The position numbers and the translations under genes were made by a program. The notes under the pieces are model-generated. The model made no database searches, was not told where the DNA came from, and worked only from the letters and a program-made list of their open reading frames with translations. DNA of 64,000 nucleotides from a virus. Its lineage: Duplodnaviria > Caudoviricetes. The first letter of the stretch is position 1, and every line of letters begins with the position of its first letter. Positions 40,954 through 61,833 of the stretch are shown here, piece after piece. The stretch lies in IMG/VR virus record IMGVR_UViG_3300006125_000005, positions 15,910 through 79,909 of that record; one strand, 5' to 3'.

Positions 40954-41378
40954 TGCAAACCTTCCTTCCCTATGAGTCCTTTACTGAATCAGCCAAGGTA
41001 TTGGATATGAAGCGTCTTGGCAAACAGCGTGTTGAGACTATGCAAATTATGAATGCTATTCTTACTCCTGGGCATGGATGGAAAAACCACCCAGCTGTTA
41101 AGATGTGGAGGCCTTACCTTCCTGTACTTTGGGATTATCAGCAAGCTATTTGTAATGAGTGGACATCTAGAGGGTATAAAGATACTTGTCTAGAAAAGTC
41201 TAGAGCACTTATTGCTGGACAAGAAAATATTGAGTCTAATGGTATTCCAAAGTGGTTGGGTAACAGAGACTTCCACCTAAGCCACCAGAGTAATCTAGTA
41301 AGAAAGCTTCCAGAGTATTACGGTCCTTTGTTCCCAGATATTTCTGGAGATTTGCCATATATTTGGCCAGGGGAGTAA
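40953..41378 (+). CDS. Pyrimidine-dimer DNA glycosylase family (DenV / MSMEG_6728-like)
   Basis: MQTFLPY...LDMKRLGKQRVE...GWKNHPAVKMW...SHQSNLVRK...LPYIWP. Confidence 0.8.
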   Translation: MQTFLPYESFTESAKVLDMKRLGKQRVETMQIMNAILTPGHGWKNHPAVKMWRPYLPVLWDYQQAICNEWTSRGYKDTCLEKSRALIAGQENIESNGIPKWLGNRDFHLSHQSNLVRKLPEYYGPLFPDISGDLPYIWPGE

Positions 41379-49046: not shown

Positions 49047-49053
49047 TACTAAG

Positions 49054-49082
49054 TTGATGTAACTAATACTCGGTACTATACT
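49054..49082 (+). promoter_or_regulatory. SigA-type promoter for the panD operon and its leader RNA
   Basis: TTGATG-N17-TATACT. Confidence 0.65.
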
Positions 49083-49090
49083 CTAAGTAT

Positions 49091-49206
49091 TGGTAGATAG
49101 AAGTTGCAAAGTTTTTTCCTCCATTTCCTTTGCACCTGTCTTACTACCATAGATCCTCTGGGCTTGTTTAAGTTCCTTCCTTCAGCTTAGGTTGGCCCAG
49201 AGGATC
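49091..49206 (+). ncRNA. Two-hairpin RNA with pyrimidine-rich (anti-SD-like) loops
   Basis: Hairpin 1: tggtag/ctacca and tgcaaag/ctttgca, loop ttttttcctccatttc. Hairpin 2: perfect 12-bp gatcctctgggc/gcccagaggatc, loop ttccttccttcag. Confidence 0.55.
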
Positions 49207-49237
49207 GCCCTATCTCGCAAATGGAATAAGGAGAAAA

Positions 49238-49603
49238 ATGAAGCAATTTGTAGGAGCTAAGCTCCATGGAATTAGAGTAACTCATAAGTCACTCGACTAC
49301 CATGGTTCAGTAACAATTCCAGAAAGTGTCTGTATGGAGCTTGGAATTGATGAGTATGAGTGGATTTATTGTGTAAATGCATCTAATGGACTTAGGTGGG
49401 AAACTTACGTACTTTATGGCCCAGATGGTGAAATGCACCTTAATGGTGGTGGAGCCCGTCTTGGTGAAATTGGAGATAAGTGTATCCTTTTTACAAAGGT
49501 TATGTACCATTACTTCCAGGGTGCTTGGGTTGCAGAATTCAATGAGTCTAACGAAGTAACTAAATTCTTTAAGTACACGACAGAGGAAATTGTCAGTGAG
49601 TAA
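49238..49603 (+). CDS. panD: Aspartate 1-decarboxylase (pyruvoyl enzyme; makes beta-alanine)
   Basis: AKLHGIRVT...LDYHG|SVTI autocleavage site; NGLRWETYV; LNGGGARL...GDKCI. Confidence 0.88.
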   Translation: MKQFVGAKLHGIRVTHKSLDYHGSVTIPESVCMELGIDEYEWIYCVNASNGLRWETYVLYGPDGEMHLNGGGARLGEIGDKCILFTKVMYHYFQGAWVAEFNESNEVTKFFKYTTEEIVSE

Positions 49604-50459
49604 GTTTACCTATGGTGCTGAGCTAGAGTGGTCAGATGTTGACCGTAGAACCCCTCTTCCAGAAGAATTAGCCGTTTGGGATAACGAAGACCAATCCATT
49701 GTTAACTCAGATGGAATGCCTAATGACCCTAAGATGAAGAAAAACGTCTACGGTGGAGAGATTAATACTAACCCTACTGATTCGATTGACCAGCAAATTG
49801 AGAATATCGGTAAGCTGAAAGAGCTACTTAACCCAGTTAGTCTTTATCGAGCTAATTTGCATGTACATATTGGAGTAGAAGGTCTTAAGGAAGATATCGT
49901 TTCCTTACAAAAGCTTCTTCAGTACGTAATTGATAATGAGCATTACGTTTACAATGAAATGCTCTTTAGGCCTACTCCTACCCAAGAAGAGTTTCCTGAC
50001 CCAGTAGATCTTAAGTTGGCTAAAGAGTTCCACCGTCAACAAAACTATTGGGCCAAGCGTCCTCTTACTCCTAATAGAGTCATTGAGACCCAAAAGGCAA
50101 CTACTCCCCAAGAGTTTTATGAAGGTCAGTTTGCTTGGAACTCTAAGACCAATACTAGAATTTGGCACCTTGGGTCTCCTAGAGCTGGTATCAATCTTCG
50201 TTCTATCTTTAAGAACGGTTCTATTGAGTTCCGTGTATTTCCGGGTACAGTTGACCTTGATGAGATTAAATCTTGTTTTGAGTTTGCTCATGACTTTACT
50301 TGGGCAGCTTTGAACGATCATAGCATTACTGCAAAGTATATGCATGAGACTAACAACTGGAACTTTCCAAAATGGCAACCATTCCTTCCTGAACTTGAGA
50401 AAGTTTGGCAAGCTAATACGGTTAAGATTCACCCAATGACCGGGGAGAGAATGAGTTGA
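49590..50459 (+). CDS. Amidoligase (COOH-NH2 ligase, GS/GCS fold) 1
   Basis: TYGAELE, GGEINTNP, LHVHIG, GINL, IEFRVFPGT. Confidence 0.75.
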   Translation: MSVSKFTYGAELEWSDVDRRTPLPEELAVWDNEDQSIVNSDGMPNDPKMKKNVYGGEINTNPTDSIDQQIENIGKLKELLNPVSLYRANLHVHIGVEGLKEDIVSLQKLLQYVIDNEHYVYNEMLFRPTPTQEEFPDPVDLKLAKEFHRQQNYWAKRPLTPNRVIETQKATTPQEFYEGQFAWNSKTNTRIWHLGSPRAGINLRSIFKNGSIEFRVFPGTVDLDEIKSCFEFAHDFTWAALNDHSITAKYMHETNNWNFPKWQPFLPELEKVWQANTVKIHPMTGERMS

Positions 50460-51292
50460 ATTTTACGTATGGGGCAGAGCTAGAATGGGCTGATGTAGAT
50501 GCCCGTCTCTTTATTAACCCAACTATTGGGTCTTGGAGTAAGAAGGAATGGACTATCGTTAATAGTGATGGCAAGGCTAATGACCCTGAGTTAATTAGAA
50601 ACCATTTTGGTGGAGAGATTAATACAGTACCTACTAACTCCTTAGCAGAACAGCTTTTAAACATTGAAGGTCTAATTGAGTTTCTAAGCCCCAAAGCTCT
50701 TTATAGGGGTAATATCCAATATCATATTGGCTATGAAGGTGCTAAAGAGAACATTGACCTAATGAAGAAAATCTTTAAGTATACAGAGGAAAACCAAGAC
50801 TTTGTATACTTTGATATGCTTCCTAGAGACCCAGCTGAACCTAAGGACTATCCCAACCCAGAAGACCTTAAGCTTGCAAAGAAGTTTGATAGACAAAGGA
50901 ATCTCTGGAATAAGCGTGGGGTTCCATCTGATAGAGCTGAAAAGATTCTAAAGGCTTCTACAGCTAAAGAGTTCTACGATGAGCATTACTTCTTTAATGA
51001 AAAGACTCAAAGGAGACTCTACCACCTTGGTACATTTAGAGCCGGTATTAACGTAAGAGCTCTTTACACCAATGGTACAGTTGAGTTTAGGTGCTTTCCA
51101 GGTTCTACTGATATAGATGAGATTAGACACTGTTTTGTCTTTTGTGAAGAGTTCATTAAGGCTGCTATCTATACTCCAGAAAGAACTGCAAAAGATATCT
51201 ACGAAAGTAGAGAATGGAAGTTTCCTAAGTGGCAAAAGTTTGACCCCGAATTAGAAAAGGGATTCAATGCAACTAAGCACCGCCCGGAGTAA
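50456..51292 (+). CDS. Amidoligase 2 (close paralog of amidoligase 1)
   Basis: TYGAELE, GGEINTVP, QYHIG, GINV, VEFRCFPGS. Confidence 0.75.
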   Translation: MNFTYGAELEWADVDARLFINPTIGSWSKKEWTIVNSDGKANDPELIRNHFGGEINTVPTNSLAEQLLNIEGLIEFLSPKALYRGNIQYHIGYEGAKENIDLMKKIFKYTEENQDFVYFDMLPRDPAEPKDYPNPEDLKLAKKFDRQRNLWNKRGVPSDRAEKILKASTAKEFYDEHYFFNEKTQRRLYHLGTFRAGINVRALYTNGTVEFRCFPGSTDIDEIRHCFVFCEEFIKAAIYTPERTAKDIYESREWKFPKWQKFDPELEKGFNATKHRPE

Positions 51293-51295
51293 AGT

Positions 51296-52165
51296 ATGAC
51301 TACTTATGGATTAGAGATTGAAACTGGAGATGTTAATTTACTCCAAGCTGCTAGAGTAGTATTTGAGAAGCAGAGTATTCCTTTTGAAGACTGGAAGGAT
51401 AGAGGAGTAAGTTTACGGGATAAGGTCCGTAGATATAACATCTGGAACATTTCTTCAGATAAAACTATTAGCAACCATAATGGGACTAGATGTCGTAGAG
51501 TAGTAATGCTTCCAGATGGTTCTATTGTTGGTGGAAAGCAAAGCAATAGGCCATATTGGCAGGGTGCAGAATTAGTTTCACCCGTACTAAAGTCAGAAAA
51601 TATGGATAATGACTTTGTATTGCTTGAAGAGTACCTTACTCTAATGGAAAACTATGGTGCCACCATTGATCCAGACCTTTTCCATGACCTCCATGTTCAT
51701 GTAGATTTTGGAGAGCAAAGTGAAAAAAATTGGAAGAGACTTCTAGAGTTTACTGCATGGGTAGAAGAAGCCCAATACCCTTTAATCAGTATCCATGAAG
51801 CAGCTACATCTGAGCATAGTCCAAAAGTATACAAGTACAGTCAAACATTTGTAGCTGATCTACTTAAGACTAAGGACTATGAGGAATATAGCTATGAATA
51901 CCGTAGACACCATCCTCTTGCAAATGGAGGTAGACAAAGTTTTGAACTCTACCAATATCGACGTCTAGTCTGCCCAGGTGCTGTTATGGATCCGACTAAG
52001 AACTATAATACACTTGAGTGGAGAGTCTGGCCAGGAATCAGAAATGTAAACTTGATTAAACGTATTTCTCAATTTAGTATTAATAGTACACAGGAATTAC
52101 CCAGTTTAGAGTATGTAAAAGAATGGTCTAAAGAGACCATCGAGTTAATGAGGAAAAGAAAGTGA
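51296..52165 (+). CDS. Amidoligase 3 (Amidoligase_2-like)
   Basis: TYGLEIE, D.TI, GAELVSPVL, LHVHVD, TLEWR. Confidence 0.75.
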   Translation: MTTYGLEIETGDVNLLQAARVVFEKQSIPFEDWKDRGVSLRDKVRRYNIWNISSDKTISNHNGTRCRRVVMLPDGSIVGGKQSNRPYWQGAELVSPVLKSENMDNDFVLLEEYLTLMENYGATIDPDLFHDLHVHVDFGEQSEKNWKRLLEFTAWVEEAQYPLISIHEAATSEHSPKVYKYSQTFVADLLKTKDYEEYSYEYRRHHPLANGGRQSFELYQYRRLVCPGAVMDPTKNYNTLEWRVWPGIRNVNLIKRISQFSINSTQELPSLEYVKEWSKETIELMRKRK

Positions 52166-52887
52166 CCTACCAATTGCCCGGACAGCCAGTAAAAGCTACA
52201 CATAAGTTTGAATCTTTAGAAGAAGAGCTCTTTGGACGCCCAAAGCGTGTACGTCGTGGTAAGATTGATATTAACACCATGACGGATGAAGAGCGTGTTG
52301 AGTATTGGAATAATGTTTCCGAAGCTCATATGTTTGGCCTTTACAAGACCCCAACAGTTAAGTTTGTTAGAGAAAAGGCTCAGCAAGTTACTAACCGTTT
52401 CTACAACGAGCTTGGTAAGCTTTCTGTCCATGAAGTTGGATGTGCTTACTCAATGACCCTCCGTTGGGTTCACCCAGAGGCTACCTTCCTTGGTACGGAC
52501 CCAGCTGAGAATATGATTAAGGCTTGCCGTATTATGTACGAAGACCGTCCCAATACTACTTTTGAGGTAGATAGTATTGAGTCAGGCCATGTCAAGTACC
52601 GTCATGATTTGGTTACAGCTTTCTGTATGATGGATTCACTCTCCCATGAGTACTCCATGAAGCTTATTCCCATGGCTGCAGATATGTGTGAAAGAGCATT
52701 CCTCTTTACTAGTCTTCGCCACGAAAAGAACAATTCCCTTGTTAAGCCCAATTGGAGCATGTACCGTAATTTCAACAGCCATGACCCAGAAGAGATTGTA
52801 GAGTTGGCTGATAAGAATGGTTTTGATTGTGAGCTTGATGTTAGAGACAAGCTTTCCAACTTTGCTGCCCTTTGGATTCGTAGGTAG
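52162..52887 (+). CDS. Class I SAM-dependent methyltransferase
   Basis: VHEVGCA (motif I), FLGTDPAENMI, HDLVTA. Confidence 0.75.
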   Translation: MTYQLPGQPVKATHKFESLEEELFGRPKRVRRGKIDINTMTDEERVEYWNNVSEAHMFGLYKTPTVKFVREKAQQVTNRFYNELGKLSVHEVGCAYSMTLRWVHPEATFLGTDPAENMIKACRIMYEDRPNTTFEVDSIESGHVKYRHDLVTAFCMMDSLSHEYSMKLIPMAADMCERAFLFTSLRHEKNNSLVKPNWSMYRNFNSHDPEEIVELADKNGFDCELDVRDKLSNFAALWIRR

Positions 52888-52889
52888 TC

Positions 52890-53672
52890 TTGAGGACAGT
52901 TGGCTTTGAAGTAGAGATGAGTGATATCCCTACCTCAAAAGCTGCTCAGCTTGTTTATGGGGATTTGAAGTATTGGCCAAAGCAACATTTTGGTGAAGGC
53001 GGATACTTTAAGCCTAAGGTAAAGTACAGCAGATGGAATCTTATCGGAGATACGACAATAGTCAACTCCGATGGGACCATCTGTGTACAACCTAAACATA
53101 GGAGTGAATGGAAGGGTGCAGAGTTAATTTCCCCTATACTGAGTACACCAGTAGAAGAATCTACTTGGGTGCAATTGCAAACTTACTTGGATGGATTTGT
53201 AGAGAATGGAGCTACCTTTAGTTCCAAGCTCTACAACTCTTTGCATGTACATGTTGGTATTTTAGATTTAGATTTTGAACAGTTTAAGTGTTTACCTAAT
53301 CACATTGTTGCTGTACAAGATGACCTAAATACTTTGAGAACAGATTGGACGGGGAGTAAGAAGTACTTCCCAAATCAACTACAAAGATTGCAAAATGCTG
53401 AAGACCCCAAGTCATGGTTGAAGGAATACTGTACTCCTGGCAAGATAACATATAGAGACTATGAGTATCCAGTTAGGAAGCTTGTTAATCTTGTTAACTA
53501 TTTCAACAATAAGGGCACAATAGAGTTCAGGTGCTTTAAGGCTAAACCTAATGCAGAGTATATCAAGTACTGTGTAGAGTTTTGCTTGTGGTTAGTAGAT
53601 AGCTGGGTAAATGGTACGGACTACACTATTGAGTTCAAAGATAGGGTTAAAGAAATTGATAATTGGAATTGA
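52890..53672 (+). CDS. Amidoligase 4 (paralog of amidoligase 3)
   Basis: TVGFEVE, GAELISPIL, LHVHVG, VNL, GTIEFRCF. Confidence 0.75.
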   Translation: MRTVGFEVEMSDIPTSKAAQLVYGDLKYWPKQHFGEGGYFKPKVKYSRWNLIGDTTIVNSDGTICVQPKHRSEWKGAELISPILSTPVEESTWVQLQTYLDGFVENGATFSSKLYNSLHVHVGILDLDFEQFKCLPNHIVAVQDDLNTLRTDWTGSKKYFPNQLQRLQNAEDPKSWLKEYCTPGKITYRDYEYPVRKLVNLVNYFNNKGTIEFRCFKAKPNAEYIKYCVEFCLWLVDSWVNGTDYTIEFKDRVKEIDNWN

Positions 53673-53795
53673 GTCCTATAAAATAGGGTATAATTCCCCC
53701 ATACCCCTATAGAGTCATTAAGAGACCCAAAGGAAAAATGGTCTCTACTAAAGGTAATTTGGGTTTATTAGTTATAAATAAGTTAGGAGATAGTA

Positions 53796-54656
53796 GTGGA
53801 TTTGTATTTAGGAGCTCCCAAGGCTTTACTTAGGCCTATGGGTTTGGGTTATGCTTTGGCTCATGAGATGGATAGTGAGGTTACTATCCAGAAGTATAAG
53901 GCTACAAATAAACTTATCTTAGATAATGGTGCTGATGAATTAGGTGAAGGTCTAGGTGGAGAAAAGCTAGCTTACCTTACTGGTAAGTTAGATCCTTACT
54001 TTCTAATCCTTCCGGATGTTTTGCATAAGCCTAAGAAAACTAGACTAAGGAGTTTAGAATTCTTAAGTAAAATGAAAGATGCTGGTTATAAAGGCCAGTT
54101 TATGGCTGTCATCCAGGATAAGGATAAGAAAAAAGCAGCCAATTCTATTTTAGAGTGGTCTTGTAGTGCTGGAGTAAATAGACTTGGTATTACGTATGAT
54201 ACTAAGATTGTTACTAATGACCCTAGCCCTGAATCTTGGATGAGAAGACTTGACTTCCTTGAATGGTTTATTAGTGAGTATAAGCAAGAGCTTAATAACG
54301 TAGATTTCCATTTGCTTGGAACTTTAGAGGTTAATGAGCTTTACCGTTTGTTCCATTTGGATAGGTATGCTGAAGTAAGGAAGTATGTAGCTAGTCATGA
54401 TACTACTGCTCCTTATGCTTGCCCTACTAGATTTGTAGTAGATCAAAGTGGAACTATTTCTTTTGGTAGAGAAAAGAATTGGAAATCCCTTAACTTTGGT
54501 AAGCAAAGTTTTAGTGGTGGTGAATTAGATACTATTGCTTGGAATACTGCTTGTTATTTAGCTGCCTGTAAGGTTCCTAAGCAAAAGTGGACTTGGTATA
54601 TGGATAAGGTTATGGCAGATATGATGTATGCTCAGTTTGAGAACTATTGTGTCTAA
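53796..54656 (+). CDS. TGT-like TIM barrel; candidate DNA 7-deazaguanine transglycosylase (DpdA-like)
   Basis: LILDNGADE, ILPDVL, MAVIQ, FHLLG, ASHDTT in the order of TGT/DpdA motifs; clustered with queD, queE and folE. Confidence 0.6.
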   Translation: MDLYLGAPKALLRPMGLGYALAHEMDSEVTIQKYKATNKLILDNGADELGEGLGGEKLAYLTGKLDPYFLILPDVLHKPKKTRLRSLEFLSKMKDAGYKGQFMAVIQDKDKKKAANSILEWSCSAGVNRLGITYDTKIVTNDPSPESWMRRLDFLEWFISEYKQELNNVDFHLLGTLEVNELYRLFHLDRYAEVRKYVASHDTTAPYACPTRFVVDQSGTISFGREKNWKSLNFGKQSFSGGELDTIAWNTACYLAACKVPKQKWTWYMDKVMADMMYAQFENYCV

Positions 54657-55587
54657 TACCTTACTCATTGTTGATGGCCATAATATTTGCATTAGAGCCT
54701 ATTTTGGCTTAGTTAGACAACAGCTGAGAACAAAAGATGGTGTAGGAACTTGGGGATTGTATGGGTCTATCAATACTTTAACTTCCCAAGTAAAGAAGTA
54801 TAACCCTACCCATATTGCTGTTACTATGGATTGGGGCAAAAGTAGTAAGAGAACAGCCCTCTACCCAGAGTACAAAGCTAATAGAACAAGTAATGGGCAA
54901 GATGAAAATTACCAAGAGTCCAGAGAACAAGTTAGGCTCTTTAGAGAATTTTGTAAGCTTTCTAATATCCCAGTTATTAGATTTGAAAATGTAGAAGCTG
55001 ATGATATTATGGCTAAGTTGGTTAAAACTTACCATAGTGATTTTGATAAGATTGTTATCTTAACAGCTGACCATGATATTAGACAGCTCATTGATGAAAA
55101 GGTTATAGTAGTAAAACCTTCCCTGGGCCAGTCCAGAGATATTGAGGAACAGACTTTTGACTTACAAAGCATTGTTGATAATTATGGTATTAAACCTAAT
55201 CGCTTACCTGAAATTTGGGCGTTAACTGGAGATAGAGGGGATAACGTCCCAGGAGTCCCTAGTATTGGCGAAAAGACAGCTATGAAGTTACTAACAGAGT
55301 TTGGTAGTCTTAGTAACTTGCTTATGAGTGACCATAAGAAAATTAACGAACATAAAGAAATAGCTAGGTTATCCTATAAGCTGGTGCAGCTGGATGGGTT
55401 AGATGATCTTGATATTCCCAGTTTAGATAGGTTAGAATTTAAACCTGTAAGGATTGGTAAAGTAGGGTCTGGGTCCTTTTTAGACTTTATAGAGAAGTAT
55501 GAATTAAATAGCATTAAGAGTAGATGGTTAGTAGATGAGCTATGGGATGAGGAAAGACCCATTGGAAGGAGACTATCTGATGGATAG
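54628..55587 (+). CDS. 5'-3' exonuclease / flap endonuclease (Pol I N-terminal-like)
   Basis: IVDGHN...RAYF, YPEYKANR, EADD, ADHD, GDRGDNVPGVPSIGEKTA; true start probably GTG 54649. Confidence 0.9.
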   Translation: MLSLRTIVSNTLLIVDGHNICIRAYFGLVRQQLRTKDGVGTWGLYGSINTLTSQVKKYNPTHIAVTMDWGKSSKRTALYPEYKANRTSNGQDENYQESREQVRLFREFCKLSNIPVIRFENVEADDIMAKLVKTYHSDFDKIVILTADHDIRQLIDEKVIVVKPSLGQSRDIEEQTFDLQSIVDNYGIKPNRLPEIWALTGDRGDNVPGVPSIGEKTAMKLLTEFGSLSNLLMSDHKKINEHKEIARLSYKLVQLDGLDDLDIPSLDRLEFKPVRIGKVGSGSFLDFIEKYELNSIKSRWLVDELWDEERPIGRRLSDG

Positions 55588-56668
55588 CAAGTTAGTAGAT
55601 ACAATTCTTAAGGATACTAAGGATTTTATTTCTAAGGGTAGTAAAGAATTAAAGTTTAATGATATTGCTTTAAGCTTGTATGCTTTACATTCTGAGTTGA
55701 ATCCAGTCTATAAGAAGTATAGTGTTGGTCCAGTAGATGACTGGAGACAGATTCCTCTTATGCCTATTAGTGAGTTTAAGAATAATGAAGTTAAACTTAC
55801 TATGAGTGATAGGATGCCCTTTCCTGGAGTAATGTTTGAGTCTTCTGGTACTACCCAGAGAGATAAGTCTAAGCATTTCCTTTATGATACTGAGTTCTAT
55901 AGAGCTTCTATGTACGAAGGGTTTAAGGATTGGATTGTTCCTAGTACTGATAAGAGTAATTTGCATTCCTATAGGGTTGTACTTTTGTCTAAAACTCTTC
56001 CCCATAGCTCGTTGTATTATATGATGAGTTATTTGAGTGAAATTTATGATTACCGTGGTATCAGAGAGCAATGGGAATTGTTAACTGATGTAGAGGTAGT
56101 TAATGAGCTTTTGGGTTGGTTAACTGATGAAAAGGAACACCCGGTAATCCTTTTTGGAACTAGCTTAGCTTTCTATGATCTTATGGATACTGTTAAGAAG
56201 GGCAACCTTGAGTTTGAAGGATTGACTAAGGGTTCCAAGATGATTGAAACTGGTGGGTGGAAGGGTAGAGATATCCAGATTTCCCCTATAGACTTAACTA
56301 AAGAGATCCAAGAGTTCTTTGGGTTAGATGAGTTTAATTGCCTTAGAGAGTATGCAATGTCTGAGATGTCCTCCCAGACTTGGCATAGTGGGTCAGAAGA
56401 TGAAGTAATGTATAGTTACCCTAGACACCTTGGGGTAAGGATTGTAGACCCTTTGAGCCAAAAAGATGTTGAGCCTGGTGAAAGTGGTATGATTGGGTTT
56501 ATTGACTTAGCTAATGTTTGGAGCTGTCCCTTTATCCTAACTGAAGATATGGGTCACCTTAAGACTTTTACCGGGGCTGACTGGTCCTTAGTACTTGAAG
56601 GAAGAGCAGTTAACGCCCCTGAGAAAGGTTGTAGTTTAACTTATGTCGAAGAAGCAATGGATAGTTAA
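55580..56668 (+). CDS. LuxE-like acyl-protein synthetase (adenylate-forming)
   Basis: IPLMPISEFK, FESSGTT, IETGGWKGR, EYAMSEMSSQ, DLANVWSCPFILTEDMG, LEGRA.NAPEKGCS. Confidence 0.85.
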   Translation: MDSKLVDTILKDTKDFISKGSKELKFNDIALSLYALHSELNPVYKKYSVGPVDDWRQIPLMPISEFKNNEVKLTMSDRMPFPGVMFESSGTTQRDKSKHFLYDTEFYRASMYEGFKDWIVPSTDKSNLHSYRVVLLSKTLPHSSLYYMMSYLSEIYDYRGIREQWELLTDVEVVNELLGWLTDEKEHPVILFGTSLAFYDLMDTVKKGNLEFEGLTKGSKMIETGGWKGRDIQISPIDLTKEIQEFFGLDEFNCLREYAMSEMSSQTWHSGSEDEVMYSYPRHLGVRIVDPLSQKDVEPGESGMIGFIDLANVWSCPFILTEDMGHLKTFTGADWSLVLEGRAVNAPEKGCSLTYVEEAMDS

Positions 56669-57677
56669 TCCAGGAGCAAACTTAGTAAGTGAGTGTGCTA
56701 AAGTTGGAAGGTTCTTAGAGTATGACTATAGGTTATCTATTAAGAATGCTGAAGTCCCATCTAGTTTTGAAGAAAACCTTTTACCTACTGGTAGACGTTT
56801 TGTAATTATTGGGGCCAGAAGTGTTCCCATGGCTACTGCTAAGTCTGTATTCCTATGTTTGAGATTAGCTGGAGCTGAAAGTGTAGTTGTTAAGACTGCT
56901 ACTGAGGATGAAGGACTTTTAGTTAAAAATGTCTTGGATAACTGGACTCCAGATGGTGTTAAAACTAAAATCTTTAGTGTAGGCTCAGATAAGCTAGGGG
57001 ATTATCCTGAGTGGGTGGAATCTCTAGAGAATGCTACAGATATTGTAGTATTTGGTGGGGAAGATACGGCTAAGTCTTTTGAAGAGTTAGATTCTAAAGA
57101 TAGGCATGTTTATATCCATGGCCCTAAGTTTAGCTTCAGTATAGTAGACGCCAAGACCCTAACTATGGTTGACTTGATGGATATTTGTTCTGATTTTGCT
57201 AACTTTTACGGAGAGGGTTGTTTATCTCCTAAGTTTTGTGTTATCGTTGGAGATATTGGGGCCAATTGGTATCATGAAGCTAGTATAATTATGAGGGCTG
57301 AGTATGGGGATAGGATTGAAGGGTTCAGGTCTAAGATGACCTTAGCTAAAAAATCTCAGCTTGTCCAAGAGATGACTAGTTCCAATATTATTGAAAAGTT
57401 TGTTAGACTTGAGACTTTGGAAAATGATGAAAAGCTCTTGAGTTCCCTTTATGGGGATATTAGATTTATAAATATAAAAAGTCTTAAAGAGCTTTGGCCT
57501 TTTATGGATAAGTGGAAAAATAGAATCAGCTCTGTATCCAGTAGTGATAATGAAGAAGCAATCAATTTACTGCAAAAGTTTGGTGTAGTTAGAGTTTGTA
57601 ATTTTGGAGAAATGCAGTTTCCAGAATTTGATGAGCAGTTTGATAGTGTAGACGATTTTGATATCTATATGCAATAG
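56643..57677 (+). CDS. LuxC-like acyl-CoA/acyl-protein reductase (compact)
   Basis: VVFGGEDT, HGPKFSF, GEGCLSP (catalytic Cys), GVVRVCNFGEMQFP...D; overlaps the luxE-like gene. Confidence 0.75.
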   Translation: MSKKQWIVNPGANLVSECAKVGRFLEYDYRLSIKNAEVPSSFEENLLPTGRRFVIIGARSVPMATAKSVFLCLRLAGAESVVVKTATEDEGLLVKNVLDNWTPDGVKTKIFSVGSDKLGDYPEWVESLENATDIVVFGGEDTAKSFEELDSKDRHVYIHGPKFSFSIVDAKTLTMVDLMDICSDFANFYGEGCLSPKFCVIVGDIGANWYHEASIIMRAEYGDRIEGFRSKMTLAKKSQLVQEMTSSNIIEKFVRLETLENDEKLLSSLYGDIRFINIKSLKELWPFMDKWKNRISSVSSSDNEEAINLLQKFGVVRVCNFGEMQFPEFDEQFDSVDDFDIYMQ

Positions 57678-57685
57678 GAGGAATA

Positions 57686-57817
57686 ATGAACAAGACAGCA
57701 TCTAAATGCCGTAAGTGTGACCATTTCCATACTGGAGAATGCCACTATAGGATGGAAGAGTTTAATGGGAAGGACTTTATTAAGAAGTCTTGTAATTGTA
57801 GAGAGAATAAAGCATGA
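57686..57817 (+). CDS. Small Cys/His-rich protein missing from ORF track (43 aa)
   Basis: aggagg RBS; MNKTASKCRKCDHFHTGECH...SCNCRENKA*. Confidence 0.55.
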   Translation: MNKTASKCRKCDHFHTGECHYRMEEFNGKDFIKKSCNCRENKA

Positions 57818-57912
57818 TAAAAAAACTTAAATGCTTGTTTAAAGGCCATAGTTGGAAATTTGCTGAAGAAGGCATCCTCTGTAGTAGGTGTGGAAAGTTA
57901 GATAGATGGTAG
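57814..57912 (+). CDS. Small Zn-finger-like protein missing from ORF track (32 aa)
   Basis: ATGA overlap; MIKKLKCLFKGHSW...LCSRCGKLDRW*. Confidence 0.5.
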   Translation: MIKKLKCLFKGHSWKFAEEGILCSRCGKLDRW

Positions 57913-59120
57913 ATTATTTAGCTAGGACCAATCCCTGTCCCTACGATATTACGATTGAAGGCTCTAGTAAGTCCTATCTCCTTACTAAGGAGTTTGGTCC
58001 TATGTTTGATATGGCCTGTGGTATTGCTGTAAATAACTTAGGGCATAGTTACCTTCCTATTATTAAGGCAGCTCGTAAGAGTGTTGGAAGTTACCGTCAT
58101 ATTAATGTGTATGGTGAATTTAATATCTCTGAGCAGCTAGAATATGCTGAGCTTTTAGCTGAAAGATTTTCTACTCTTACTATGGCAAATGGTATCAGTG
58201 AAGAAAATAAGGTTTGGTTTTGTACTTCTGGAACTGAGGCTAACGAGTTAGCTATGAAGCTAGCTACCCTTAGTACAGCTAGTAAACTTAAGAGAGGGTT
58301 TATTGCCCTTACTGGTGGGTTCCATGGTAGGACGTTGGGGAGTTTAAGTCTTACCCAAAAGGAACTTTACCGTGAACCCTTTAGTTGGATGGTTAAGGCT
58401 GGGTTAACTACTTGGATTGAACCTGGTGAAGAAATTCCCAAAGAGTTTAAGACACGTAGTGCTTTCTTTATGGAATTAGTCCAAGGTGAAGCTGGTGTTA
58501 TTCCGTTAGACCCTGAATGGGCTACTTATGTAAGCAACTGGTGTAGGGAGAATGAGGTTCTCCTAGTTGTTGACGAGGTCCAGACTGGATTTGGTAGAAC
58601 TGGAACCCATTTTGCTCTAGATCAGTACCAAGGGGTAAAGCCCGATATCATTACTTTGGGTAAGGCCCTTGGTGGTGGCTATCCCCTAGGGGCTGTTATT
58701 TCTAGTTCTAATAGGTTCAAATCTATTTCTGAGGAAAATCCCTTTACCCACCTGAGTACTTTTGGTGGTAACCCCATTGCTTGTGCAGCTGGTATTCAGA
58801 TGTTTAAGGGAACTGAGAAAAAGAAGCTTTTGCAAAATGTTAATGATGGTAATATCTTAGCTCATAATGTCTTTAAGGAATCTGAATCCGGAGCTCACCT
58901 TAGAGGTTTGGGATTGATGTTGGGTTTAGTCTTAGATGATGAAACTGATATTGACGAGGTAGTACAAAATATCTGGAAGAATAACGTATTTTGTGGTAGG
59001 GTATTGTATGGTAGTAATACTATTCGTCTATACCCGCCTTTGAATACCACTCCTTCGGACATATATAATAAGGTAAGAAGGGTTGAAGAGGCCGTTCTAG
59101 TAAGTAGAAAGAGGAAATAA
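57906..59120 (+). CDS. Class-III PLP-dependent aminotransferase (ArgD-like)
   Basis: SGTEANE, GFHGRT, ELVQGEAG, DEVQTGFGRTG, PDIITLGKALGGG, HLSTFGGNP. Confidence 0.92.
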   Translation: MVDYLARTNPCPYDITIEGSSKSYLLTKEFGPMFDMACGIAVNNLGHSYLPIIKAARKSVGSYRHINVYGEFNISEQLEYAELLAERFSTLTMANGISEENKVWFCTSGTEANELAMKLATLSTASKLKRGFIALTGGFHGRTLGSLSLTQKELYREPFSWMVKAGLTTWIEPGEEIPKEFKTRSAFFMELVQGEAGVIPLDPEWATYVSNWCRENEVLLVVDEVQTGFGRTGTHFALDQYQGVKPDIITLGKALGGGYPLGAVISSSNRFKSISEENPFTHLSTFGGNPIACAAGIQMFKGTEKKKLLQNVNDGNILAHNVFKESESGAHLRGLGLMLGLVLDDETDIDEVVQNIWKNNVFCGRVLYGSNTIRLYPPLNTTPSDIYNKVRRVEEAVLVSRKRK

Positions 59121-59587
59121 TGGCAATTTGTACTATCTCGAAAGAGATTGAGTTTGATGCTGGCCATAGAGTCAGTACTCATGGTTCCAAGTGTAAGAAT
59201 CCCCATGGGCACCGTTATAAGGTCCGGGTTACTTGTAAGGGGACTATTATTGATAACCCAGAGAGAGTTGATCATGGTATGTTGATTGACTTTGGTAGTC
59301 TTAAGACTATTATGAATGAAAAGATTCATGATGTTTTGGACCATGGATTTATTGTCTGGGAAGAAGATTTTGCGATGAGGGAATCTTTGCTTGTAGGTTT
59401 TAGAGATTATGGGCTTAATTGGAACGTAATCTTTTTTGAGACTATGCCTACTGCTGAAAATATTGCTGTATGGTGTTGGAATCAGATTAAGGATGATATT
59501 GCTAATTCCTTTGGTAAGGATTTGGTAATTGATGAAGTGGCTGTTTGGGAGACGCCTACTTCTGTAGCTTATTATCGAGGAGAGTAA
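59120..59587 (+). CDS. queD: 6-carboxy-5,6,7,8-tetrahydropterin synthase
   Basis: FDAGH...KCKNPHGHRY, GMLIDFG.LK, LDH, PTAENIA, VWETPTS. Confidence 0.92.
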   Translation: MAICTISKEIEFDAGHRVSTHGSKCKNPHGHRYKVRVTCKGTIIDNPERVDHGMLIDFGSLKTIMNEKIHDVLDHGFIVWEEDFAMRESLLVGFRDYGLNWNVIFFETMPTAENIAVWCWNQIKDDIANSFGKDLVIDEVAVWETPTSVAYYRGE

Positions 59588-60345
59588 TGGCAGACCATTT
59601 TAAGTTAGTTGAGCATTATGTTAGTACTCAGGGTGAAGGACCTAATACTGGTAAGCTTACCCAGTTTGTAAGGTTTGCTGGATGTGATATGCGCTGTGGT
59701 GGTTGGCCTTGTGATACTCCTTTTGCGAGTGACCCTAAGCAATGGGCTAAGATCTACTATAAGAGAACGGTAGATGAGCTTTACGATAATATCCTTGAGA
59801 AGTATGAGGAAACCGGAGCTAAGAATATCTGCTTTACTGGTGGAGAACCGTTTATGCAGAATAATGATCTCTTGGATGAACTCTTTGAGAAGTTAGATCC
59901 TAACTTGGAGTGGATTGAGCAAGAGAATGGTAATTTTACTATTGTTAACTTGCCTGATTTGAGATTTGAACTTGAAGCTTTCAGTAATGGTAGTTTTGAG
60001 TATTCTGACGTAGCTCTTGATAAGATTTACTTTATGATGGACTGGAAGTTGGATGGTTCCGGTGAAGGTAGTACTTCCTTAGAGAATAGACGTAAAAATG
60101 CTACGAGTATTTATGGTGGCATTAAGTTTGTTTGTAAGGATGAAGAAGACTTTAAGCAAGCTATCCAGGTATGGCATAGTCTTAAAGATAAGGTAAGCTC
60201 AGATTGTAGATTCTGGGTTGGTAGTGCTTGGGATGTATTTCCGACGAGTAGAGTAGTAGAATTGATTATGGAGCATAAGCTCCCTTGGAGTTTGAATATT
60301 CAGGTCCATAACTATATTTTTGGGGCCAACGTTCGAGGTACTTGA
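59587..60345 (+). CDS. queE: 7-carboxy-7-deazaguanine synthase (radical SAM)
   Basis: STQGEG, FVRFAGCDMRCGGWPCDT, FTGGEP, IKFV, QVH. Confidence 0.9.
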   Translation: MADHFKLVEHYVSTQGEGPNTGKLTQFVRFAGCDMRCGGWPCDTPFASDPKQWAKIYYKRTVDELYDNILEKYEETGAKNICFTGGEPFMQNNDLLDELFEKLDPNLEWIEQENGNFTIVNLPDLRFELEAFSNGSFEYSDVALDKIYFMMDWKLDGSGEGSTSLENRRKNATSIYGGIKFVCKDEEDFKQAIQVWHSLKDKVSSDCRFWVGSAWDVFPTSRVVELIMEHKLPWSLNIQVHNYIFGANVRGT

Positions 60346-60395
60346 TAATGTAGTACTATTGTACAGTTACATAAGTATAAGAACAAAGGAGTAGT

Positions 60396-61055
60396 ATGAC
60401 TTATACTTGTAGAATGTGTAGTAGTGAGTTGCCCAAAAGATCCAAGCCGGGTGGGTACCCAAAGTATTGTGAAGATTGTAAGTGTCTTACACGAGAGTGT
60501 GAAAATTGCAAAAAGACGATGTCAATCTGGCGCAAAGACGGGTACCCCACGGCAAGGTTTTGTGGACGAAAATGTTCTGCTATCAGTCAATATAGAGACC
60601 CACTTCAAAGAGATAGACGTAGAATGGGTCCGGGAATTACAGCCATGAAACAAGTCCAGAAAACTCAAGAATGGAAAGACAAGATGTCAATCCTATCGAG
60701 AGACAGAATGTATAGAAACATAGCTGACGGGACTCATCCATTTCGTAAACTCTATGAGACAAAAATTAGCAAGCTAGAACGTAGTTGCATCCCTGTACTC
60801 GAAGAAATGGGTTACTGGCATAGTAGTTTTGAGTATCGAGTCAATCATCCCAACGGGACAGTTAAGAGCCCAGACTTCAAAAAGCATAACGAAAATCTAG
60901 TAGTAGAAATATTTGGACGTTATTGGCACCCACAAGAAGATGAGGAGAATATTATCAATTGGTATAGAGAAGCAGGATTTGACTGTATTGTAGTCTGGGA
61001 AGAAGAAGTTAGTAACATCAAACAAATTATTTCAGCAAATGAAAGAGGTAGGTAG
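60396..61055 (+). mobile_element. Free-standing homing-type endonuclease (Zn-finger repeats plus Vsr/DUF559-like PD-(D/E)xK domain)
   Basis: CRMC..YCEDC, CENC..FCGRKC, SPDF...VVEIFGRYWH...VVWEEE; A-rich codon usage unlike neighbours; sits between queE and folE. Confidence 0.7.
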
Positions 61056-61056
61056 T

Positions 61057-61833
61057 ATGTATAGTAAGAATTGCCCACATTGTGGTCTTGATTTGACCAT
61101 TTACGGTGACAAGACTCAAGAAAGTCATATTAAGAACTGTCTCAGCATCAATGCAAACCGTAAGGATTTGCAAAAGCTTAAGGGTGACTTAAATAAGTGG
61201 TCAAAGCTGGATGATGCTTGGGAATCATACCCAGGGGATTATTGGAAGGATATCCGTTCCAATAAGAAGTTAAATACTCCATCAGCTAAAGATGCTGTAA
61301 GTGAGTTATTGAGTGCTCTAGGAGAAGATGTTACCCGAGAGGGTCTCCTTGAAACTCCACGTAGAGTTGCTGAAATGTATGCTGAGTTAACTTCTGGTTA
61401 CCAGCTTGACCCCAGGGAGATTGTTGAAAAGGCAATCTTTAAGGAGGGTTCCAGTGAACTTGTAATTGTTAGGGATATTCCTTTCTATAGCCTTTGTGAG
61501 CACCACCTTGCTCCATTCTTTGGAACTGCTACTATTGGTTACGTTCCAGTTAATGGACGGGTCGTAGGACTTTCTAAGTTGGCTCGAGTATTGGATGCTT
61601 TTGCTAAGCGTCTCCAAGTCCAAGAGCGACTTGGTGCCCAAATTGCTGATACCCTCTATACTAGTGGCCTTAACCCTAATGGTGTTGGCGTATACATTAG
61701 TGCAGAGCACCTTTGTATGGCTATGAGAGGTGTACAAAAGCCTGGAACCTCTACGGTTACGAATACCCTCCGGGGATGCATAAAGAATGGTGACCACAAG
61801 GAAGAGTGGATGAGGATGGTAGCTGGTAGATGA
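61057..61833 (+). CDS. folE: GTP cyclohydrolase I with N-terminal Zn-finger extension
   Basis: REGLLETPRRVA, SLCEHHLAPFFG, GLSKLAR, RLQVQERL, AEHLCMAMRGV. Confidence 0.95.
   Translation: MYSKNCPHCGLDLTIYGDKTQESHIKNCLSINANRKDLQKLKGDLNKWSKLDDAWESYPGDYWKDIRSNKKLNTPSAKDAVSELLSALGEDVTREGLLETPRRVAEMYAELTSGYQLDPREIVEKAIFKEGSSELVIVRDIPFYSLCEHHLAPFFGTATIGYVPVNGRVVGLSKLARVLDAFAKRLQVQERLGAQIADTLYTSGLNPNGVGVYISAEHLCMAMRGVQKPGTSTVTNTLRGCIKNGDHKEEWMRMVAGR

What the first reader, a model, noticed from the sequence alone, without database searches (positions are those of the whole stretch)
49238..53672. panD, four amidoligases and a methyltransferase in one coupled operon: a beta-alanine conjugation pathway
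Seen: panD with an intact G|S cleavage site overlaps the first of four COOH-NH2 ligase genes. These form two paralog pairs (1/2 and 3/4) around a SAM methyltransferase. No panB or panC is present in the window. Established: PanD makes beta-alanine from aspartate; GS/GCS-fold amidoligases join carboxylates to amines using ATP. Inference: beta-alanine is not for CoA but is ligated, perhaps iteratively, onto an acceptor. Candidates are the 7-deazaguanine side chain (CDG carboxyl or preQ1 amine) made by the adjacent cluster, virion glycans, or host cell wall. I know of no described phage system with this combination.
Basis: partly seen in the sequence, partly recalled or inferred. Interest (0 to 1): 0.82.

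Follow-up and report, generated by a model that had tools for sequence, protein, structure and literature searches.

The report
Amide-ligase add-on to phage deazaguanine cluster
An uncultured freshwater phage carries a beta-alanine-making enzyme, four amide-bond ligases and a methyltransferase next to the enzyme that swaps a modified guanine into DNA, so it probably builds an undescribed, larger decoration on that DNA base.

Summary
Window 49238-53672 is one tightly coupled operon: panD, lig1, lig2, lig3, a class-I methyltransferase and lig4.

lig1/lig2 (48% identity) and lig3/lig4 (26%, E 4e-19) are paralog pairs. All four keep the shared acidic and basic motifs.

The operon sits in a variable slot upstream of a conserved core: a TGT-fold DpdA-like gene, FEN, LuxE, LuxC, an aminotransferase, QueD, QueE and FolE. 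I found no QueC or QueF.

Of 16 related contigs examined:
- 13 carry at least one amidoligase in the slot, in differing sets, some with GNAT or methyltransferase genes.
- 6 carry panD. Counting a seventh, truncated contig, panD always directly precedes lig1+lig2, which are fused in three.

Outside this lineage, 72 of the 80 best lig1-family viral loci lie in TET / DNA-kinase / amino-acid:DNA-transferase hypermodification cassettes.

Best reading (about 0.5): the cassette extends the 7-deazaguanine side chain in DNA by amide bonds, with PanD supplying beta-alanine. The acceptor, the order of steps and the product are inferred. The DNA target is favoured over glycan or cell wall.

This scan noted the same cassette on other DNA before (e1-6146942, e1-6146951). 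I found no paper describing it.

The parts
49238..49603 (+). panD, pyruvoyl-type aspartate 1-decarboxylase (121 aa). Predicted source of beta-alanine.
   Evidence: PF02261 at 1.1e-22. Solved PanDs match down to E 5.9e-11, with the GS site aligned. K8, H10, Y21, G23, S24, R53, T56, Y57 and N69 are invariant in 6 phage PanDs. NCBIfam panD equivalog scores 62.7 bits, below its cut-off of 106.
49590..50459 (+). lig1, GS/GCS-fold carboxylate-amine ligase (289 aa). Overlaps the end of panD by 14 nt.
   Evidence: PF12224 at 1.2e-08. AlphaFold model pLDDT 92.6. VIA-align Z 10.5 to YbdK (1r8g, 1tt4; rmsd 4.7-4.9 over 217 residues) and about 9.5 to glutamine synthetases. Best Foldseek E 5.8e-4.
50456..51292 (+). 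lig2, paralog of lig1 (278 aa). Fused to lig1 in one ORF in some relatives.
   Evidence: 48% identity to lig1, E 1e-96. PF12224 at 2.9e-06. Fused ORFs of 582-589 aa in L003, L004, L109 and L113.
51296..52165 (+). lig3, divergent amidoligase (289 aa) restricted to this phage lineage.
   Evidence: No Pfam match. blastp to lig4 E 4.4e-19. Only 7 relatives in 5.8 billion clusters, 5 of the 6 non-self ones flagged PF12224. Motifs ExE, H, R and ExR are kept.
52162..52887 (+). Class-I SAM-dependent methyltransferase (241 aa).
   Evidence: Methyltransf_25 E 2e-4, below cut-off. Atlas feature score 0.97 to class-I methyltransferase clusters. Orthologs follow lig3 in L002, L003, L086, L109 and L114.
52890..53672 (+). 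lig4, amidoligase (260 aa). Absent from the closest syntenic relatives, and the only ligase in others.
   Evidence: PF12224 at 3.5e-19. 45 cluster representatives in 1.84 billion proteins. Present in L085, L086, L087-L093 and L095.
53796..54656 (+). Context: DpdA-like TGT-fold transglycosylase (286 aa). Presumed inserter of the deazaguanine base into DNA.
   Evidence: No Pfam, NCBIfam or PDB sequence match. Model pLDDT 90.1. Foldseek hits to tRNA-guanine transglycosylases at E 3.7e-06, prob 1.0, TMq 0.52-0.56, with 188 hits at E <= 1e-3. Atlas neighbour cluster carries PF23859 DpdA in 17% of members.
55535..59120 (+). Context: LuxE-like adenylating enzyme, LuxC-like reductase and class-III aminotransferase. 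Conserved with the core. Role unknown.
   Evidence: PF04443 at 8.9e-13, PF05893 at 9.9e-12, PF00202 at 5.8e-71. Best NCBIfam match for the aminotransferase is acetylornithine transaminase at 3.8e-78, below cut-off. Syntenic in all DpdA-type relatives.
59120..61833 (+). Context: QueD, QueE, an inserted 219-aa ORF, and FolE. Together they synthesise 7-carboxy-7-deazaguanine (CDG).
   Evidence: PTPS at 4.3e-34, GTP_cyclohydroI at 7.6e-69, weak radical SAM. QueD 87.6 bits against a cut-off of 89.25. The five best QueE matches are all QueE models but below cut-offs. FolE is over its cut-off.

Best explanation
The six genes are an accessory 'tailoring' cassette of a phage 7-deazaguanine DNA-modification system.

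The conserved core (FolE, QueD, QueE and a TGT-fold DpdA-like enzyme, with LuxE/LuxC/aminotransferase beside them) makes a 7-deazaguanine base and puts it into phage DNA. No QueC is encoded, so the encoded pathway stops at the carboxylate CDG.

The cassette then lengthens the C7 side chain through ATP-dependent amide bonds. PanD decarboxylates aspartate to beta-alanine. The lig1/lig2 pair, which is translationally coupled to panD and fused to each other in some relatives, ligates that beta-alanine. lig3 and lig4 add further units. The methyltransferase caps the product.

Two polarities are possible: the amine of beta-alanine onto the CDG carboxyl, or the carboxyl of beta-alanine onto an aminomethyl (preQ1-like) group.

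The likely purpose is to escape host nucleases that recognise simpler deazaguanines.

Shown here: the gene identities, folds, coupling, synteny and co-variation.
Inferred: the substrates, the DNA as acceptor, the order of steps and the product.
For: 1. Position and co-variation. Sixteen related contigs have the slot fully covered. All 16 keep DpdA-FEN-LuxE, followed by LuxC (not detected in L125), the aminotransferase, Que genes and FolE as far as each contig reaches. The slot just upstream varies:
- panD-l1-l2-l3-MT-l4 (window)
- panD-l1-l2-l3-MT (L002, L003, L004, L106)
- l1l2-l3-MT (L109)
- panD-l1-l2-l4-MT' (L085)
- l4-GNAT-MT' (L089)
- GNAT-l4-MT'-DpdA-l2'-l2' (L091, L093)
- l4-MT' (L095)
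- l1 only (L005, L007)
- GNAT only (L125)
- no ligase (L116, L119)
. In L090, L091 and L093 two ligase genes lie between DpdA and FEN, inside the core.

2. panD. It is in 6 of the 16 contigs, plus truncated L113. In 7 of 7 it is directly followed by lig1+lig2.

3. lig1 family elsewhere. There are 327 relatives in viral contigs. Of the best 80 loci, 72 hold at least one, and 39 hold all four, of TET/JBP, GATase, LMWPc/P-loop DNA kinase and ADDT (amino acid:DNA transferase). The gene order is TET-GATase-TAGT-lig-LMWPc-ADDT-kinase.

4. No other pathway to pair with. QueC is in 0 of 6 records and QueF in 0 of 4, the best of them 83-84% complete. ADDT and ThyA are in 0 of 3, and TET appears only at 11 bits, below threshold. 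The deazaguanine pathway is the only base-modification pathway detected for the ligases to act on.

5. Fold and motifs. lig1 has the carboxylate-amine ligase fold. All four ligases keep the ExE, H, R and ExR columns.

6. Other phage PanDs also sit beside acyl- or amide-forming enzymes. In Rhodococcus phage Jace the order is ParB-like, ABC-ATPase+GNAT, PanD, CoA-transferase III. Viral contig L132 has PanD, a 195-aa ORF, then an ATP-grasp enzyme. A GNAT+ABC-ATPase protein has been predicted in print to acylate a DNA base (PMC7824862, passage read).
Against: - The slot is a general variable region. In relatives it also holds UvdE or a pyrimidine-dimer glycosylase, so adjacency alone is weaker than it looks.
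- Ligases are dispensable. L116 and L119 have the core and no amidoligase (0 of 3 records, one of them 84% complete).
- More distant lig4 relatives lie beside an RHS-repeat protein in non-phage-like contigs, with no DNA-modification neighbours (L098; L096 shares its ORF layout and L099 the lig4 side of it).
- The closest outgroup of lig1 (L006, L008) has only LMWPc and nuclease neighbours.
- In L132, PanD sits next to a tail-fibre-like gene, which would suit a protein target.
- None of the four ligases has a basic pI (5.4-6.3).
- PanD scores below NCBI's equivalog cut-off, so its substrate is not certain.
- All records are metagenomic fragments (22-84% complete), so absences are provisional.
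- No modified nucleoside has been measured.
Confidence: 0.5

Rival explanations
1. Same pathway, but tailoring happens before insertion. The ligases and methyltransferase act on the free base or a nucleotide (CDG or a preQ1-like base), and the divergent DpdA-like enzyme then inserts the finished, bulky base into DNA.
For: The DpdA-like protein is so divergent that no sequence model detects it, which would fit an altered base pocket. The ligases are acidic to neutral (pI 5.4-6.3). Published discussion leaves the DpdA3 substrate open between CDG, DG and ADG (PMC10516641, section 17).
Against: The same DpdA orthologs (45-61% identity) serve slots with very different tailoring sets, and slots with none. 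One pocket would then have to accept many bases. lig1's relatives sit in cassettes whose characterised steps are post-replicative on DNA (PMC8989533 abstract and passages).
Confidence: 0.15
2. The cassette is unrelated to DNA. PanD and the ligases make a beta-alanine-containing small molecule or peptide tag, or modify a phage or host protein. They merely occupy a hot spot for accessory genes next to DpdA.
For: The slot also carries unrelated DNA-repair genes in relatives. Distant lig4 homologs lie next to an RHS-repeat protein. In L132, PanD plus an ATP-grasp enzyme lie beside a tail-fibre-like gene. GS-fold ligases include the protein ligase PafA, which appears among the fold hits.
Against: No amidoligase was found in the one related record that lacks DpdA (G006; n = 1, 48% complete). 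Ligase genes are interleaved within the core in L090, L091 and L093. 72 of 80 lig1-family loci are DNA-hypermodification cassettes. GNAT and methyltransferase genes co-vary with the ligases in the same slot.
Confidence: 0.2
3. panD is an auxiliary metabolic gene that boosts host beta-alanine, pantothenate and CoA during infection, independently of the ligases.
For: PanD's textbook role is in CoA synthesis. The putative host class (Actinobacteria, inferred from WhiB and Rpf-like genes) uses PanD.
Against: No PanB or PanC (0 of 3 records). There is a 14-nt overlap with lig1. panD is never seen without lig1+lig2 in this lineage (7 of 7). Two other phage PanDs also sit beside acyl- or amide-forming enzymes.
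Confidence: 0.05
4. The ligases modify virion glycans or the host cell wall.
For: GT2 and GT4 glycosyltransferases lie 4.5-6.5 kb upstream and are conserved in relatives.
Against: The glycosyltransferases are separated from the cassette by a six-tRNA array and five other ORFs. They remain present in ligase-less relatives such as L116, so they do not co-vary with the cassette. No cell-wall enzyme is in the operon.
Confidence: 0.05

Closest known systems
Phage 7-deazaguanine DNA modification systems with side-chain tailoring (DpdA plus DpdM giving mdPreQ1, DpdN giving fdPreQ1; Cui et al. 2023, PMC10516641: abstract and sections 17 and 21 read)
   Same: FolE/QueD/QueE synthesis genes sit beside a TGT-fold DNA transglycosylase. 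Extra enzymes next to it would decorate the C7 side chain. fdPreQ1 is already an N-acyl (formyl) derivative.
   Different: No QueC or QueF was found. The tailoring enzymes are GS-fold amidoligases, PanD and a class-I methyltransferase; DpdM is described as having a unique fold. None of the eight known derivatives carries an amino-acid or beta-alanyl unit. The DpdA-like protein matches no sequence model.
Thymidine/cytosine hypermodification cassettes (TET/JBP or dUMP hydroxymethylase, 5-HMUDK, aGPT-Pplase/ADDT) with associated 'amidoligase' and 'glutaminotransferase' genes of unknown function (Lee et al., PMC8989533: passages read)
   Same: They share the lig1 amidoligase family (30-41% identity). 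Both show combinatorial, cassette-like variation of tailoring genes. An amine-supplying partner sits next to the ligase: GATase there, PanD here.
   Different: The window's record and two relatives have no ADDT or ThyA-like gene, and TET appears only below threshold. The DpdA-context ligases form their own branch (SH-aLRT 95, quick tree). The target base would be a purine analogue.
YbdK/GCS2 carboxylate-amine ligases, glutamine synthetase and gamma-glutamylcysteine ligase
   Same: Same fold (Z 10.5 to YbdK, Z 9-9.6 to glutamine synthetases). Conserved acidic and basic motifs. The implied chemistry is ATP activation of a carboxylate followed by attack by an amine.
   Different: Only 9-14% identity. 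The proteins are much shorter (260-289 aa) and lack the glutamine synthetase N-terminal domain. Substrates are unknown.
Rhodococcus phage Jace gp85-gp88 (ParB-like, ABC-ATPase+GNAT, PanD, CoA-transferase III)
   Same: A phage PanD (43% identity) sits beside an acyl-transfer enzyme. That enzyme's architecture resembles one predicted in print to acylate a DNA base.
   Different: GNAT and CoA chemistry in place of ATP-dependent amidoligases. No deazaguanine genes were seen in the 11 kb viewed. The likeness to the published GNAT+ABC family rests on domain architecture only.

Membership tests
Aspartate 1-decarboxylase PanD (PF02261) | Sequence match above the curated Pfam threshold | tested here: met
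   80.5 bits against a cut-off of 25, E 1.1e-22. 14 solved PanD sequences match at E <= 1e-3.
Aspartate 1-decarboxylase PanD (PF02261) | Gly-Ser self-cleavage site that yields the pyruvoyl group | tested here: met
   G23-S24 aligns with the GS of 3oug and is invariant in 6 phage PanDs. Actual cleavage cannot be tested here.
Aspartate 1-decarboxylase PanD (PF02261) | Lys/His near the N-terminus and the R-x-x-T-Y and LNG motifs (their roles are recalled from the literature, not from a call) | tested here: met
   K8, H10, R53, T56, Y57 and N69 are invariant. The R-x-E-T-Y and LNG..AR motifs align with solved PanDs.
Aspartate 1-decarboxylase PanD (PF02261) | NCBIfam equivalog score (TIGR00223) | tested here: not met
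   62.7 bits against a cut-off of 106. It is a divergent member, so substrate identity is not guaranteed.
Amidoligase_2 / GS-GCS carboxylate-amine ligase superfamily | Pfam PF12224 match above threshold | tested here: met
   lig1 35.6, lig2 27.8 and lig4 70.1 bits against a cut-off of 22. lig3 has no match here but is linked to lig4 (E 4.4e-19) and to PF12224-flagged orthologs.
Amidoligase_2 / GS-GCS carboxylate-amine ligase superfamily | GS/GCS catalytic fold | tested here: met
   lig1 model pLDDT 92.6. Z 10.5 to YbdK, and 196 chains at Z >= 8, all listed ones from GS, GCS or YbdK families. Only lig1 was modelled.
Amidoligase_2 / GS-GCS carboxylate-amine ligase superfamily | Conserved metal- and phosphate-binding acidic and basic residues | tested here: inconclusive
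   ExE, H, R and ExR columns are invariant in all four ligases, in 31 lig1-family sequences and in 32 lig3/4-family sequences. Mapping these to the catalytic residues of solved enzymes was not done residue by residue.
Phage 7-deazaguanine DNA modification system | DpdA/TGT-family transglycosylase | tested here: inconclusive
   The fold test is met: Foldseek to TGT at E 3.7e-06, prob 1.0. The sequence models are not met: PF23859 gives 0 matches at E <= 10, and there is no Pfam, NCBIfam or PDB sequence hit.
Phage 7-deazaguanine DNA modification system | FolE, QueD and QueE (CDG synthesis) | tested here: met
   FolE scores 239 bits, over its cut-off. QueD's Pfam PTPS match is 117.5 bits. QueE's best five NCBIfam hits are all QueE models, but below their cut-offs.
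Phage 7-deazaguanine DNA modification system | QueC (preQ0 synthesis), and QueF for preQ1 | tested here: not met
   QueC in 0 of 6 records, QueF in 0 of 4. The records are 22-84% complete, so absence is provisional. The host could supply these enzymes.
Phage 7-deazaguanine DNA modification system | A 7-deazaguanine present in virion DNA | not testable with these tools
   The phage is uncultured and no nucleoside data exist.
Pyrimidine hypermodification cassette (TET/5-HMUDK/ADDT) | ADDT/aGPT-Pplase, TET/JBP or dUMP hydroxymethylase in the genome | tested here: not met
   ADDT 0 of 3 records, ThyA family 0 of 3, TET only 11.3 bits against a cut-off of 34.9 in 2 of 3.
Pantothenate/CoA pathway | PanB and PanC together with PanD | tested here: not met
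   0 of 3 records for each.

The most novel reading that the evidence does not exclude
Up to four dedicated GS-fold ligases grow a short oligo-amide chain containing beta-alanine, step by step, on the C7 side chain of 7-deazaguanine in phage DNA, and a methyltransferase caps it. This would be a template-free 'peptide' built on a DNA base.

The underlying core would also use a route from CDG to an aminomethyl group that needs neither QueC nor QueF: LuxE-type activation, LuxC-type reduction to the aldehyde, then class-III transamination.

Related phages would carry different chain lengths and caps (GNAT acetyl, methyl), as an arms-race series.
Probability: 0.2. Interest if true: 0.9.

Novelty: new variant of a known kind. 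Interest (0 to 1): 0.7.

Why it matters
Eight 7-deazaguanine derivatives are known in viral DNA. None carries an amino-acid-like unit (PMC10516641, abstract and discussion read). If this reading is right, four things follow:

- It adds a new chemical class of DNA base: amide-extended deazaguanines.
- It gives a first testable function to the 'amidoligase' genes that recur, unexplained, in hundreds of phage DNA-hypermodification cassettes (PMC8989533).
- It gives phage-encoded PanD a role outside CoA synthesis.
- It offers a natural series of related phages, carrying 0, 1, 3 or 4 ligases with or without GNAT and methyltransferase genes. Such a series could show how hypermodifications diversify under pressure from host nucleases.

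Such enzymes could also become tools for site-specific derivatisation of DNA.

Tried and rejected
- DNA search of the operon against GenBank phages (blastn): no match. tblastn with lig4 found only two gut-phage amidoligases at 27-28% identity.
- Single-protein scans of viral contigs with lig4 and lig1 found nothing. Alignments were needed.
- The lig3/4 alignment A3 found only this lineage's lig3 in viral contigs and nothing in the species-representative genomes.
- A profile of the lig1 family against PDB sequences gave no meaningful hit. The methyltransferase against PDB sequences gave only E >= 0.09.
- The promoter and terminator scan of 48000-60000 gave counts no higher than shuffles (30 against 28.7; 11 against 8.2). 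No operon boundary is claimed from it.
- No RNA holder was listed for the operon, so nothing can be said about expression.
- Laid contigs only confirm the assembly and the presence of diverged relatives.
- I considered reading LuxE/LuxC/aminotransferase as a QueC/QueF bypass and kept it only as part of the novel case. Contig L126 has FEN-LuxE-LuxC without DpdA, aminotransferase, Que genes or FolE.
- I considered an ArgBCD/LysW-like logic, in which the ligase attaches Glu or Asp and the side-chain acid is then turned into an amine. I could not test it.
- No complex prediction was run for lig1 with lig2. The gene fusions already argue that they work together, and a pass would not change the functional reading.
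- Papers not held or not read, and cited only from recall: Iyer et al. 2009 on amidoligases (not held), Iyer et al. 2013 on DNA base modification systems, and Burke et al. 2021 on phage TET.
Supplementary Data S1 of PMC10516641, the list of viruses with deazaguanine genes, may hold related clusters that I could not see.

Full report
**What is there.**
Window 49238-53672 holds six co-directional ORFs with overlapping or nearly abutting ends (junctions read): panD (121 aa), lig1 (289 aa), lig2 (278 aa), lig3 (289 aa), a methyltransferase (241 aa) and lig4 (260 aa).

- panD matches Pfam Asp_decarbox at 1.1e-22.
- lig1, lig2 and lig4 match Amidoligase_2 above threshold. lig3 matches nothing in Pfam, and the methyltransferase only weakly.
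- blastp confirms the two paralog pairs: lig1/lig2 48% identity, E 1e-96; lig3/lig4 26% identity, E 4e-19. It also links the pairs through lig1/lig4 at E 2e-8.
- PanD aligns with solved PanDs through the Gly-Ser processing site and the R-x-E-T-Y and LNG motifs. These residues are invariant in six phage PanDs. It scores below NCBI's equivalog cut-off.
- A lig1 model (pLDDT 92.6) has the carboxylate-amine ligase fold: Z 10.5 to YbdK and about 9.5 to glutamine synthetases. Foldseek E-values are weak, 5.8e-4 at best.
- All four ligases share the ExE, H, R and ExR columns.
- The methyltransferase groups with class-I SAM methyltransferases.

**Where it sits.**
The source is a 79.9-kb linear IMG/VR virus record, estimated 51% complete. 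It comes from freshwater metagenomes. WhiB and an Rpf-like transglycosylase suggest an actinobacterial host.

Directly downstream lie, in order:
- a 286-aa protein with no sequence-family match. Its model (pLDDT 90.1) hits tRNA-guanine transglycosylases (E 3.7e-6, prob 1.0), so it is a DpdA-like enzyme;
- a 5'-3' exonuclease (FEN);
- a LuxE-like adenylating enzyme, a LuxC-like reductase and a class-III aminotransferase;
- QueD, QueE, an inserted 219-aa ORF, FolE and a dUTPase/dCTP-deaminase-like gene.

Several families were searched for and not found:
- QueC: 0 of 6 records of the lineage.
- QueF: 0 of 4.
- PanB and PanC: 0 of 3 each.
- ADDT and thymidylate-synthase-like genes: 0 of 3 each. 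TET/JBP appears only at 11 bits.

The best records are 83-84% complete, so these absences are provisional.

**Comparative genomics of the slot.**
I therefore built alignments of relatives and scanned viral and metagenome contigs.

In 16 related contigs the region from the AAA_28/o48264/UvdE genes to DpdA is fully covered. Several of these are near-duplicates. All 16 keep DpdA-FEN-LuxE, followed by LuxC (not detected in L125), the aminotransferase, Que genes and FolE as far as each contig reaches. The slot upstream of DpdA varies:

| Slot content | Contigs |
|---|---|
| panD-l1-l2-l3-MT-l4 | window |
| panD-l1-l2-l3-MT | L002, L106, L003, L004 |
| fused l1l2-l3-MT, no panD | L109 |
| panD-l1-l2-l4-MT' | L085 |
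| l4-GNAT-MT' | L089 |
| GNAT-l4-MT'-DpdA-l2'-l2'-FEN | L091, L093 (also left-truncated L090) |
| l4-MT' | L095 |
| a single l1 | L005, L007 |
| an unknown ORF plus GNAT | L125 |
| no ligase | L116, L119 |

The ligase-less case is confirmed by 0 Amidoligase_2 matches in an 84%-complete record. L117 and L118 were fetched but not examined.

In summary:
- At least one amidoligase is present in 13 of 16 contigs.
- panD is present in 6 of 16, plus truncated L113. In 7 of 7 cases it directly precedes lig1+lig2.
- lig1 and lig2 form one ORF of 582-589 aa in L003, L004, L109 and L113, which argues that they work together.
- lig3 is confined to this lineage: 7 proteins in 5.8 billion clusters. lig4 is rare: 45 representatives in 1.84 billion proteins.

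**The lig1 family elsewhere.**
The family has 327 relatives in viral contigs. I clustered the neighbours of the best 80 loci with a script and named one representative of each cluster with Pfam. This is my own crude ORF calling and single-linkage clustering.

- 72 of 80 loci carry at least one, and 39 carry all four, of: a TET/JBP dioxygenase, a class-II glutamine amidotransferase, an LMWPc/P-loop nucleotide-kinase-3 protein, and ADDT (amino acid:DNA transferase).
- The usual gene order is TET-GATase-TAGT-ligase-LMWPc-ADDT-kinase.
- Of the 8 loci with none of these, 5 are the DpdA-type loci.

Lee et al. (PMC8989533; passages read) already note Pfam 'amidoligase' and 'glutaminotransferase' genes of unknown function in such thymidine-hypermodification clusters.

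A quick maximum-likelihood tree puts the 11 DpdA-context ligases on one side of a branch (SH-aLRT 95), apart from 72 others. lig1 and lig2 orthologs form subgroups within it (midpoint root, fused rows left out, careful search unfinished).

lig1 therefore belongs to a family whose genomic home is post-replicative DNA base hypermodification. In those cassettes the partner next to the ligase is an ammonia-supplying GATase. Here the partner is PanD.

**PanD in other phages.**
- Rhodococcus phage Jace has the order ParB-like, ABC-ATPase+GNAT, PanD (43% identity), CoA-transferase III. A GNAT coupled to an ABC ATPase has been predicted in print to acylate a DNA nucleobase (PMC7824862, section 3.4.7, passage read). 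The likeness here is by domain architecture only.
- A 19.5-kb viral contig (L132) has a tail-fibre-like gene, PanD (46% identity), a 195-aa ORF and an ATP-grasp enzyme.

In three unrelated settings, then, a phage PanD sits beside an acyl- or amide-forming enzyme. That fits a dedicated use of beta-alanine. The acceptor need not be the same in each.

**Mechanism.**
Best reading, confidence about 0.5:
1. The core makes a 7-deazaguanine. As encoded it gets only as far as CDG, a carboxylate. The DpdA-like enzyme puts it into DNA.
2. The cassette extends the C7 side chain by amide bonds.
3. PanD supplies beta-alanine to lig1/lig2.
4. lig3 and lig4 add further units, and the methyltransferase caps the product.

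Which end reacts is open.
- By analogy with the GATase-ligase pairs, the DNA-borne group would be the carboxylate (dCDG) and beta-alanine the amine.
- GNAT genes in the same slot, once with no ligase at all (L125), imply instead that the core product carries an amine. That would fit LuxE/LuxC/aminotransferase converting the CDG carboxyl to an aminomethyl group.

Against that second idea, L126 keeps FEN-LuxE-LuxC with no DpdA, aminotransferase, Que genes or FolE in 75 kb (48% complete).

**What weakens the DNA reading.**
- The slot also holds UvdE or a pyrimidine-dimer glycosylase in relatives, so it is a general accessory region.
- The ligases are dispensable.
- Distant lig4 relatives lie next to an RHS-repeat protein.
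- The ligases are not basic proteins.
- Every record is a metagenomic fragment.
- No nucleoside has been measured.

**Comparison with what is known, and novelty.**
Cui et al. 2023 (PMC10516641; abstract and sections 17 and 21 read) list eight deazaguanine derivatives in viral DNA and three tailoring enzymes (DpdL, DpdM, DpdN). None is an amidoligase and none adds an amino-acid-like unit.

Full-text searches found no description of this gene combination. The term sets were: 7-deazaguanine with amidoligase, LuxE, aminotransferase or DpdA; amidoligase with DNA modification; and aspartate decarboxylase with bacteriophage. A 2026 preprint on bacterial deazapurine clusters does not cover it.

This scan has reported the same cassette, with three ligase domains, on other genomes (e1-6146942, e1-6146951). 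The present window adds the fourth ligase.

I class it as a new variant of a known kind: a phage deazaguanine DNA-modification system with a new, modular amide-ligase tailoring cassette. It is of clear interest, but it rests on inference until a nucleoside is measured.

Noticed in passing
window 55535-59120, and loci L002-L007, L085-L093, L109, L114, L116-L119: LuxE-like, LuxC-like and class-III aminotransferase genes are conserved between FEN and QueD in all DpdA-type relatives, while QueC and QueF are not found. Together they could turn the CDG carboxyl into an aminomethyl group, a preQ1 route without QueC or QueF. Against this, L126 keeps FEN-LuxE-LuxC without any deazaguanine gene.
   Followed up: partly
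window 60396-61055: A 219-aa basic ORF (pI 9.06) lies between QueE and FolE. It is present only here and in L114 (95% identity) and absent from the other relatives. It has only a weak Vsr-like hit (E 0.032). It may be a mobile endonuclease insertion.
   Followed up: partly
L003:9977-11746, L004, L109:4517-6268, L113:4303-6051: lig1 and lig2 are fused into a single 582-589-aa ORF in four contigs of relatives, a Rosetta-stone hint that the two paralogs act together.
   Followed up: partly
L001 (Rhodococcus phage Jace) 4347-7112: ParB-like, ABC-ATPase+GNAT fusion, PanD and CoA-transferase III lie in a row. This suggests beta-alanyl-CoA formation and transfer, possibly to a DNA base.
   Followed up: partly
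L132:4472-10596: Another viral PanD (46% identity) is followed by a 195-aa ORF and an ATP-grasp ligase. On the opposite strand are a PhyH dioxygenase and a weak, sub-threshold QueC-like PP-loop protein. A tail-fibre-like (Mtd_N) gene lies beside them.
   Followed up: partly
P0042, P0043, P0049, P0050; L028:3211-4260: LMWPc (low-molecular-weight phosphatase fold) domains are fused either to lig1-family amidoligases or to P-loop nucleotide kinase 3 in the TET/ADDT cassettes. The role of this phosphatase-like domain in DNA hypermodification is unexplained.
   Followed up: no
L003:8570-9592, L005:8925-9992, L116:6943-7362; window 40953-41378: UV-damage repair genes (UvdE, or a pyrimidine-dimer glycosylase) occupy the same variable slot upstream of DpdA in relatives. 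The window has its glycosylase elsewhere.
   Followed up: no
window 49298-49494 and 51071-51225, runs X1 and X2: Contigs of a diverged relative, at higher depth than the window's own genotype (177.6 against 13.5 in X1), match only the most conserved parts of panD and lig2. Several cassette variants therefore coexist in one sample.
   Followed up: no
window 52890-52916: The public gene call for lig4 (P0064, 251 aa) starts 9 codons later than the TTG at 52890. The longer form contains the family's invariant G-x-E-x-E-x-S-D motif, so the earlier start is more likely.
   Followed up: partly
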